64,000 nucleotides of DNA from Vicugna vicugna (lineage: Eukaryota), in NCBI GenBank assembly GCA_013265495.1, contig MU058198.1, positions 2,306,419 to 2,370,418 of the forward strand, in the 5' to 3' direction. The notes beneath the pieces were generated by a model. That model had not been told where the DNA came from and ran no database searches. It saw only the letters and a program-made list of their open reading frames with translations. Shown here piece by piece: positions 50,600 through 51,430 of this stretch (position 1 is the stretch's first letter; each line of letters begins with the position of its first letter). The position numbers and the translations under genes are program-made.

Positions 50600-51043
50600 T
50601 ATCTCACTTTTTGCTTCTAAAACGGCTTACTTACCCCTATACTTCTATTGATTCCCTGAACTCACTCCTGATTGGTTATTTTTCTCACTCCCGATTGGTC
50701 CATTTCCCTAACTTCTGATTGGTCCGTTTGTAGTATTTCATTTGCATGGAGCTCACTCCTGATTGGTTATTTCTCTCCCTCTTGATTGGTCCATTTCTAC
50801 AAAGTTTGTTCCTAGTCAACTTTCTTTGTTCCTCATTTGCATATGAGGTTACAAAGTGTAAACTGGCAGCCTATAAAAGCTGGTGTAAACGTACAGATGG
50901 GGTCCAGAGCTCGGAGTGTTAACTCCTTCGGGCCCCTGGCGTAATAAACCTGAGTTGTCCTACTCAGTGAGTGGTGCTGTTTGGTCTCTTGCTCGGATCC
51001 AGGTTGCCATCTCAACTGAGCTGTAACACCGAGCTGTAACACA
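50600..51043 (+). mobile_element. solo ERV LTR with intact-looking promoter (5' boundary approximate)
   Basis: Five ATTGG boxes, two ATTTGCAT octamers, TATAAAA at 50872, AATAAA at 50943, ending in tandem gagctgtaaca. No primer-binding site follows. Confidence 0.75.
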
Positions 51044-51430
51044 TTTTTCCAAGATACCCTGAAGGTAAGTCAAGATTCTTGCGGAAAGAAGGAATTACAG
51101 AGGCAAAGAGAAGTTAAATAATTGCCCTGGGCCATAGAGCTACAAGTACTGCAGAATTATTTTTTCCCCTCTGGTTTTAGATTTGGACAGACTAGCTCAG
51201 GCTCTTTGTTCTCGCCGACTTTCCCAGGGCCAAATTTCATGTGCAATTTTGTTTTTTGCTAAGAGCCAGAGTTTTCTCAAGGTGATTAAGGAGCCAACGC
51301 GGTAAACCAAAGTGTTATCCTCTAGACCTTGAATTTTCCGAAACTTTTAGTACAGAGGCTAAGGAGTAAAACACTCAGTGGTGGGTTTCAGCACTTTCTT
51401 TCTTTTTTTTCATTCCCCTCACCACCTTAC

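What the first reader, a model, noticed from the sequence alone, without database searches (positions are those of the whole stretch)
50600..51070. Solo LTR with CCAAT/octamer/TATA promoter and a perfect downstream splice donor: candidate alternative first exon for EEF2K
Seen: five inverted CCAAT boxes (ATTGG at 50671, 50694, 50718, 50762, 50785), two octamers ATTTGCAT (50740, 50835; the second has a Sox-like CTTTGTT 4 bp upstream), and TATAAAA at 50872. About 20 bp past the LTR end sits a consensus donor AAG|GTAAGT at 51064/51065. The unit faces the putative EEF2K gene, about 2.5 kb upstream of its CpG promoter. Known: NF-Y/POU-driven ERV LTRs (the primate ERV9 LTR12 is the classic case) act as germline or embryonic promoters that splice into host genes, and a nearby U1 site can suppress an LTR's own AATAAA (here 50943). 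Inference: a lineage-specific exon of about 160 nt could splice to EEF2K exon 2. Because the normal exon 1 looks non-coding, the protein would be intact but under new control.
Basis: partly seen in the sequence, partly recalled or inferred. Interest (0 to 1): 0.72.

Follow-up and report, generated by a model that had tools for sequence, protein, structure and literature searches.

The report
Camelid solo LTR upstream of EEF2K
A retroviral remnant found in many copies across this camel-family genome sits 2.7 kb in front of what is likely the EEF2K gene, with its start signals intact and a strong splice signal beside it, so it could act as a second promoter, but no RNA from this copy was seen and it is likely an ordinary, mostly silent insertion.

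Summary
Every motif is at the stated coordinate, but the element was drawn wrongly. Copies laid from three runs put it at 50506 to about 51054-51056, so the AAG|GTAAGT donor lies 8-10 nt past its end, in single-copy host DNA. It belongs to an abundant family (summed depth about 900-3,200 times the flanks; rough). None of the 26 listed private differences falls in the CCAAT, octamer, TATA or AATAAA motifs, so these look like family features; the five CCAAT boxes come from a tandem duplication. The Sox/octamer pair has a non-cooperative orientation. In the one RNA-type run laid (about 1% read, tissue not given), a different copy starts 27-30 nt after the TATA box, supporting the predicted start for the family. 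This copy gave no reads and no joint at 51064 was listed, while about 12 reads lay on the CpG exon (about 53716-54031). That negative is weak; no run known to be germline was available. EEF2K rests on gene order; its coding exons lie outside the window. Verdict: a real solo LTR with a latent promoter, a well-known kind; use as a first exon is unshown (about 0.3).

The parts
50500..50505 (.). 5' copy of the likely target-site duplication (TTCCCT; or its last four letters CCCT)
   Evidence: 6-mer with 1 mismatch if the element ends at 51054, perfect 4-mer if it ends at 51056
50506..51054 (+). Solo LTR of an abundant family, about 549 bp, starting TG; 3' end 51054-51056, terminal CA not present in this copy
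   Evidence: (loose ends before 50506 and behind 51049; depth 16,000-107,000 against 16-49 on the flanks)
50658..50798 (+). U3 tandem array: five inverted CCAAT boxes in 23-24-nt units, duplicated at 91-nt spacing; first octamer at 50740
50824..50842 (+). Sox-like CTTTGTT, 4-nt spacer, inverted octamer (forward/reverse +4 arrangement)
   Evidence: geometry compared with PMC5314778 passages
50872..50878 (+). TATA box TATAAAA
50899..50905 (+). Predicted transcription start (U3/R border); seen for another copy of the family, not for this copy
   Evidence: table 7 (20 reads with a template-switch end before 50905 that carry other-copy letters); (27-30 nt after the TATA box)
50943..50948 (+). LTR poly(A) signal AATAAA, 43 nt after the predicted start and 116 nt before the donor
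51018..51042 (+). 13-nt tandem repeat near the U5 end
51055..51060 (.). 3' copy of the likely target-site duplication (TACCCT)
51062..51070 (+). Perfect splice donor AAG|GTAAGT in single-copy host flank; candidate exon about 50900-51064, 165 nt, no ATG
   Evidence: spanned by a contig in each of three runs, no difference listed there in a truncated table
51097..51147 (+). Old SINE-like core (MIR by recall) in the right flank; the alignment does not reach the donor
   Evidence: (profile of 8 window copies, E 5e-7)
53108..53199 (+). Cryptic cassette-exon candidate (L2-like by recall) with strong acceptor, CAG|GTAAGG donor and two ATGs, between the LTR donor and the gene
   Evidence: use not shown
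53716..54031 (+). Canonical non-coding first exon in the CpG island (likely EEF2K), donor CAG|GTAGGT, no ATG
   Evidence: (8 reads with template-switch end at 53716; about 12 reads over the exon, none beyond bin 54051)

Best explanation
A solo LTR of an abundant family sits in the sense direction 2.7 kb upstream of a CpG-island promoter that is likely EEF2K's, and it is likely a latent promoter that stays mostly silent while the CpG promoter makes the mRNA. Shown: the boundaries, the high copy number, the intact CCAAT/octamer/TATA/AATAAA set, the donor in host DNA 8-10 nt past the end, a start site at the matching position in another copy, and use of the CpG start. Inferred: a provirus integrated a few bases upstream of a donor-like host sequence and was reduced to one LTR by recombination; with at least 4.7% private differences the insertion is old (roughly 20 million years or more at a recalled mammalian rate), so probably shared among camelids; NF-Y and a POU factor would drive it only where it is unmethylated. 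If it fires, U1 binding at 51064 and the short distance from the cap would let RNA pass the LTR's AATAAA and splice on, but this is untested and need not have been selected for.
For: Boundaries and multi-copy nature from three runs (depth ratios about 900-3,200; the tool warns summed depth is no copy number). 0 of 26 listed private differences fall in the 54 core motif bases, 2.6 expected, P about 0.07 (40 of 106 table rows were shown), so the motifs look inherited from the family. CpG observed/expected 0.35 in the LTR against 0.9 in the island, in line with long-term methylation. In run X6, 53 reads were laid: the 11 at 99%+ and 1 at 95-99% likeness match the roughly 12 reads' worth of depth on the CpG exon, leaving the 41 reads under 95% as other copies; depth is 0 in 51104-51237 and no joint or loose end is listed at 51064. 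A perfect donor within 50 nt has a chance of 0.12% per copy, so about one of 1,000 copies would have one. No primer-binding TGG after the end and no purine tract before the start.
Against: The RNA negative is weak: one run, about 1 in 100 read, a targeted library, tissue not given, listing thresholds of 3 reads, and 1,088 loose-end rows and 70 joint rows hidden. The conjunction of intact motifs, a perfect donor 8-10 nt from the end, sense orientation and a gene 2.7 kb away is rarer than the donor alone. The family is start-competent in at least one other copy. Hundreds of genes have LTR-initiated isoforms in oocytes (1,176 mouse, 617 rat, 639 human; PMC6102241 passages). The absence of differences in the motifs could also mean selection.
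Confidence: 0.58

Rival explanations
1. Used alternative first exon: in germ cells, early embryos or placenta the LTR is unmethylated, starts near 50900 and splices from 51064 over the CpG exon to exon 2, giving intact EEF2K under LTR control.
For: Intact motifs and perfect donor; start site at the matching position in another copy, probably one molecule since the 20 reads share one upstream string; no ATG in either first exon; LTR and donor flank present in three runs; precedents ZFP90 and SCIN from LTR12C, Sirt2 from RLTR31B2 (PMC6102241); donor-dependent poly(A) suppression in HIV-1 (PMC3694450).
Against: No read from this copy in X6 (weak). Sox/Oct site in forward/reverse geometry, for which cooperative binding is reported as severely impeded (PMC5314778). 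MoMLV's poly(A) control is donor-independent, so suppression is not general. Six acceptor-like sites lie between the donor and the end of exon 1.
Confidence: 0.27
2. The LTR fires but the product is not a normal EEF2K mRNA: it is cut at the LTR's AATAAA or at ATTAAA 52189, or is spliced to a cryptic cassette such as 53108-53199, whose ATGs would add upstream reading frames; its effect, if any, would be interference with or methylation of the CpG promoter.
For: Poly(A)-like signals at 50943 and 52189, six acceptor-like sites, and a cassette with two ATGs; LTR-initiated transcripts that cross a CpG promoter are linked to its methylation in oocytes (PMC6102241).
Against: No read supports any of these products; acceptors come from a simple pyrimidine count; the island keeps CpG o/e above 0.9, which argues against long-standing germline methylation.
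Confidence: 0.08
3. The LTR acts as an NF-Y/POU enhancer of the CpG promoter 2.7 kb away, and the donor is incidental.
For: Five CCAAT boxes and two octamers intact; an LTR12C CCAAT array acts as an enhancer at the globin locus (PMC11853044 passages).
Against: No chromatin or binding data; the same motifs appear to be in many copies; low CpG content suggests methylation.
Confidence: 0.07

Closest known systems
LTR-initiated transcription units in oocytes (Brind'Amour et al. 2018, PMC6102241; passages read), e.g. LTR12C-ZFP90, LTR12C-SCIN, RLTR31B2-Sirt2
   Same: Solo LTR in sense orientation upstream of a CpG-island promoter, able in principle to give a new first exon spliced into the gene
   Different: Those are shown by RNA and methylation data; here no transcript from the locus was seen, and the donor is host sequence outside the LTR whereas a subset of MaLR LTRs carry it inside
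ERV9/LTR12 solo LTRs (review PMC11853044; passages read)
   Same: Tandem CCAAT (NF-Y) array in U3; short R; known use as alternative promoters and enhancers
   Different: LTR12 has 5-17 units of about 41 nt with GATA and MZF1 sites and a weak or absent TATA; here five boxes in 23-24-nt units, two octamers, a canonical TATAAAA, no MZF1-like site and no GCCANNNNTGGC; LTR12C is primate-specific
HIV-1 5' LTR poly(A) occlusion by the major splice donor (described in PMC3694450; passages read)
   Same: Poly(A) signal close to the cap with a strong donor downstream (116 nt here, 195 nt in HIV-1)
   Different: There the donor is viral and the effect is shown; here it is a host site beside a solo LTR and the effect is inferred
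Camelid ERV1 LTR retrotransposons (PMC8605555; passages read, supplements not readable)
   Same: Abundant class in camelid genomes (1,142-2,455 ERV1 elements identified per genome)
   Different: The family of this element could not be named: no Dfam or Repbase library was on hand

Membership tests
Solo LTR | Interspersed multi-copy element with sharp ends | tested here: met
   depth jump and many unlike flanks at 50506 and 51049 in three runs
Solo LTR | TG...CA termini | tested here: inconclusive
   TG at 50506; this copy's 3' end reads GA (51054) or TA (51056), not CA
Solo LTR | Short target-site duplication | tested here: met
   6-mer with 1 mismatch or perfect 4-mer, depending on the end chosen
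Solo LTR | U3-R-U5 order: enhancer array, TATA, start, poly(A) signal | tested here: met
   start at the matching place in another copy
Solo LTR | No internal proviral sequence attached | tested here: met
   single-copy depth on both flanks; no TGG after the end, 2 purines in the last 10 nt before the start
ERV1 (class I) LTR | Match to a named ERV1 LTR family or link to class I internal genes | not testable with these tools
   no repeat library; pattern scans of metagenome and viral contigs gave 0; the ERV1 label is recalled from resemblance
ERV9/LTR12 | 5-17 U3 units of about 41 nt | tested here: not met
   units of 23-24 nt, five boxes versus PMC11853044
ERV9/LTR12 | CCAAT boxes in U3 | tested here: met
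ERV9/LTR12 | MZF1-like and GATA sites in the units; GCCANNNNTGGC at the start | tested here: not met
   none, apart from one GATA core at 50604 outside the array
LTR-initiated transcript of a gene | Capped 5' ends inside this LTR copy | tested here: inconclusive
   ends at the matching place came from another copy; none from this copy in one shallow run of unstated tissue
LTR-initiated transcript of a gene | Splice from the LTR exon to an annotated exon | tested here: inconclusive
   no joint or loose end listed at 51064 (truncated tables); exon 2 is outside the window
LTR-initiated transcript of a gene | Germline or embryo expression, methylation of the downstream CpG island | not testable with these tools
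   no run known to be from such tissue was offered; no methylation data
Cooperative Sox2-Oct4 composite element | Forward/forward half-sites with 0 or 3 nt spacer | tested here: not met
   forward/reverse with 4 nt versus PMC5314778

The most novel reading that the evidence does not exclude
In camelid oocytes or placenta this LTR replaces the CpG promoter of EEF2K: its transcript runs through the island, lays down maternal methylation there and puts a kinase that culls poor-quality oocytes under retroviral, lineage-specific and possibly imprint-like control, using a host donor that also shields the RNA from the LTR's own poly(A) signal.
Probability: 0.06. Interest if true: 0.65.

Novelty: new member of a known kind. 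Interest (0 to 1): 0.28.

Why it matters
[quoted passage not shown] 2014, as described in PMC5742810; passage read) and in a lineage for which my searches found no such case. The side result, a start site for this abundant camelid LTR family 27-30 nt after its TATA box, suggests the family is a pool of possible promoters worth a genome-wide look. As it stands it is an ordinary solo LTR with an untested potential.

Tried and rejected
No whole genome is held, so copies and orthologous sites in pig, cow or horse could not be read. Run search with 50860-51080 (20 sampled words): no RNA holder listed; this is not used as evidence. Of 11 runs listed, 4 were laid (X1, X2, X5, X6), on 50300-54300 only; X1, X2 and X5 have no kind on record and are read as genomic DNA from their even flank depth. 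Pattern scans for other copies: 0 in metagenome contigs and 0 in viral contigs. My first boundary, 50612-51043 with a TTTT duplication, was rejected. The idea that the donor derives from the neighbouring MIR-like repeat or from an MLT1-like repeat (both names recalled) is unproven: flank alignments scored near shuffled controls and the SINE profile aligned only from 51097. Folding of the candidate exon was no better than shuffles (z -0.8). CpG-decay context explained only 2 of 12 transition rows checked. Rfam on 44000-64000 gave two tRNA hits only. Recalled short EEF2K peptide motifs were not found in 55001-64000. Literature searches for an EEF2K LTR promoter and for a name for the family found none in the listings; supplements of PMC8605555 could not be read and may name the family. 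Earlier-finding look-ups by place, sequence, words and relatives gave nothing on this locus.

Full report
Observation. The ATTGG cluster is the densest of the window (5 in 120 bp, against at most 2 elsewhere). It is not five independent events: the boxes lie in 23-24-nt tandem units, and 50658-50706 is repeated at 90% identity 91 nt further on. A perfect donor 9-mer occurs 3 times on the + strand and 0 times on the - strand in 64 kb; a first-order model gives 0.12% for one within 50 nt of a given point, and 1.8% with one mismatch allowed.

The gene. A Pfam scan of 68 plus-strand stop-to-stop frames found a weak VWA_3 match near 18 kb and four 3Beta_HSD matches at 27.7-35.8 kb in ascending profile order. 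A tRNA-Leu(TAG) lies at 45449-45530 and a CpG island at about 53.3-54.5 kb. VWA3A, SDR42E2 and EEF2K share a 480-kb human interval (PMC9777446, one table row seen); their order, with EEF2K next after SDR42E2, is recalled. Two earlier scan notes place SMG1 2.2 Mb before and SRCAP 5.1 Mb after this window (unchecked), which fits the same recalled chromosome segment. No EEF2K coding exon was found in the window, so the name is likely but not shown. The tRNA-Ala-like SINE and earlier notes point to a camelid.

What the element is. No genome is held, so I laid four public runs on 50300-54300 at 85% likeness. Three of them (X1, X2, X5; kind not on record) cover the flanks evenly at depth 16-49 and are read as genomic DNA. 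Over the element the summed depth is 16,000-107,000, about 900-3,200 times the flank; the tool warns that this is no copy number, so I take it only as an abundant family. Other copies leave the window sequence before 50506 (27, 33 and 29 contigs) and behind 51049 (44, 47 and 49 contigs) with long unlike flanks. The element therefore starts with TG at 50506 and ends at about 51054-51056. The flanks give TTCCCT/TACCCT (one mismatch) for an end at 51054 or a perfect CCCT for an end at 51056; this copy lacks the terminal CA. Both flanks are single copy, there is no TGG after the end and no purine tract before the start: a solo LTR. The donor is 8-10 nt past the end, in host DNA. Each of the three runs has a contig across the 5' junction and one from 51022 across the donor, with no difference listed at the donor in a table that shows 40 of 106 rows.

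Age and motifs. The rows shown list 26 places in the 549 bp where nearly all other copies read another letter (at least 4.7%); most laid records are 85-95% alike. At a recalled mammalian rate this means roughly 20 million years or more, so the insertion is probably shared among camelids (inference). None of the 26 falls in the 54 bases of CCAAT, octamer, TATA and AATAAA motifs (2.6 expected, P about 0.07). The simplest reading is that these motifs are the family's standard promoter, kept in this copy; a hint of selection cannot be excluded. One difference, on 3 to 10 contigs, falls in the Sox-like site. That site and the octamer stand forward/reverse with 4 nt between; Coop-seq found forward/reverse arrangements highly detrimental to Sox/Oct pairing (PMC5314778, passages), so this is not a pluripotency composite element. 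CpG observed/expected is 0.35 in the LTR, like bulk DNA.

RNA. The fourth run, X6 (listed as probably RNA, a targeted single-cell library, about 1 in 100 read, tissue not given), gave 53 laid reads: 11 at 99% or more, 1 at 95-99%, 41 below 95%. Eight reads end at 53716 in a string that I recognise from memory as a template-switch oligo; depth runs to bin 54051 and stops, and amounts to about 12 reads. With the donor CAG|GTAGGT at 54031 this defines a 316-nt first exon without ATG, and accounts for the high-likeness reads. Twenty reads end before 50905 in the same kind of string, which puts a start 27-30 nt after the TATA box. They carry other-copy letters at 50912, 50929 and 50935 and leave the window sequence after 50953, so they come from a different copy, and as they share one upstream string they are probably one molecule. 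For this copy there is no read: depth is 0 in 51104-51237, and no joint or loose end is listed at 51064. This negative is weak: one shallow run, listing thresholds of three reads, 70 joint rows and 1,088 loose-end rows not shown, and no sign that the tissue is germline.

How it would work if used. A transcript from about 50900 meets AATAAA after 43 nt and the donor 116 nt later. In HIV-1 a donor 195 nt downstream suppresses the LTR poly(A) site through U1, while MoMLV's control is donor-independent (PMC3694450, passages), so read-through is plausible but not assured. The 165-nt exon has no ATG. Between the donor and the end of exon 1 lie six acceptor-like sites by a simple pyrimidine count, an ATTAAA at 52189, a second LTR-like element (51431-51883) and a cassette candidate at 53108-53199 with two ATGs; any of these could divert the RNA. 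Where the donor came from is open: an old SINE-like core aligns from 51097 (E 5e-7) but not over the donor, and flank comparisons were near shuffled controls.

Comparison with what is known. LTR-initiated isoforms are common in oocytes (1,176 genes in mouse, 617 in rat, 639 in human), and those starting upstream of a CpG promoter are linked to its methylation, as at ZFP90, SCIN and Sirt2 (PMC6102241, abstract and passages). The element works like an LTR12-type CCAAT promoter but is not an LTR12: unit length, number, MZF1-like site and start-site repeat do not match (PMC11853044, passages). ERV1 elements are abundant in camelids (PMC8605555, passages; supplements unreadable); I could not name the family, and the ERV1 label is recalled. 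Loss of eEF2K lets poor-quality mouse oocytes survive (PMC5742810, passage on Chu et al. 2014), which is what would make germline control interesting. Searches for an LTR promoter of EEF2K and for this family showed none in their listings.

Verdict. A real solo LTR with an intact family promoter and a perfect host donor beside it. With around a thousand copies, about one would have such a donor by chance, though the closeness to a gene makes the case less common. Most likely a latent, mostly silent promoter (0.58); a used germline or placental first exon about 0.27; aberrant or interfering transcript 0.08; enhancer 0.07. New member of a known kind; interest 0.28.

Noticed in passing
window 51431-51883: A second multi-copy LTR-like element (453 bp, TG...CA, flanks TTAC/TTAT; depth up to 21,000), antisense by my reading, carrying a CAG|GTAAGG donor at 51836 on the + strand.
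   Followed up: partly
window 53108-53199: Cassette-exon candidate with a strong pyrimidine tract, a CAG|GTAAGG donor and two ATGs just upstream of the CpG island; L2-like by recall; no reads on it in X6.
   Followed up: partly
window 50899-50905 (another copy of the family): In run X6, 20 reads with a template-switch end start at the U3/R border of a different copy, and 7 reads run out of another copy's 3' end into its flank: the family can be transcribed in that sample, possibly past its own poly(A) signal.
   Followed up: partly
window 45449-45530: tRNA-Leu(TAG) gene on the minus strand between the 3-beta-HSD-family gene and the CpG island, matching the recalled human arrangement near EEF2K.
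   Followed up: no
window 4534-4606, 17605-17675, 20497-20570, 28574-28645, 58464-58535: Five further tRNA-like hits (four Ala, one Val); the one read (58464) has an A-rich tail and looks like a camelid tRNA-derived SINE (recalled).
   Followed up: no
window 50340-50500: The left flank resembles an older MaLR (MLT1-type) LTR remnant by recall; one contig in each of three runs matches it with a repeated unit (table 5c), so the younger LTR may sit inside an older one.
   Followed up: partly
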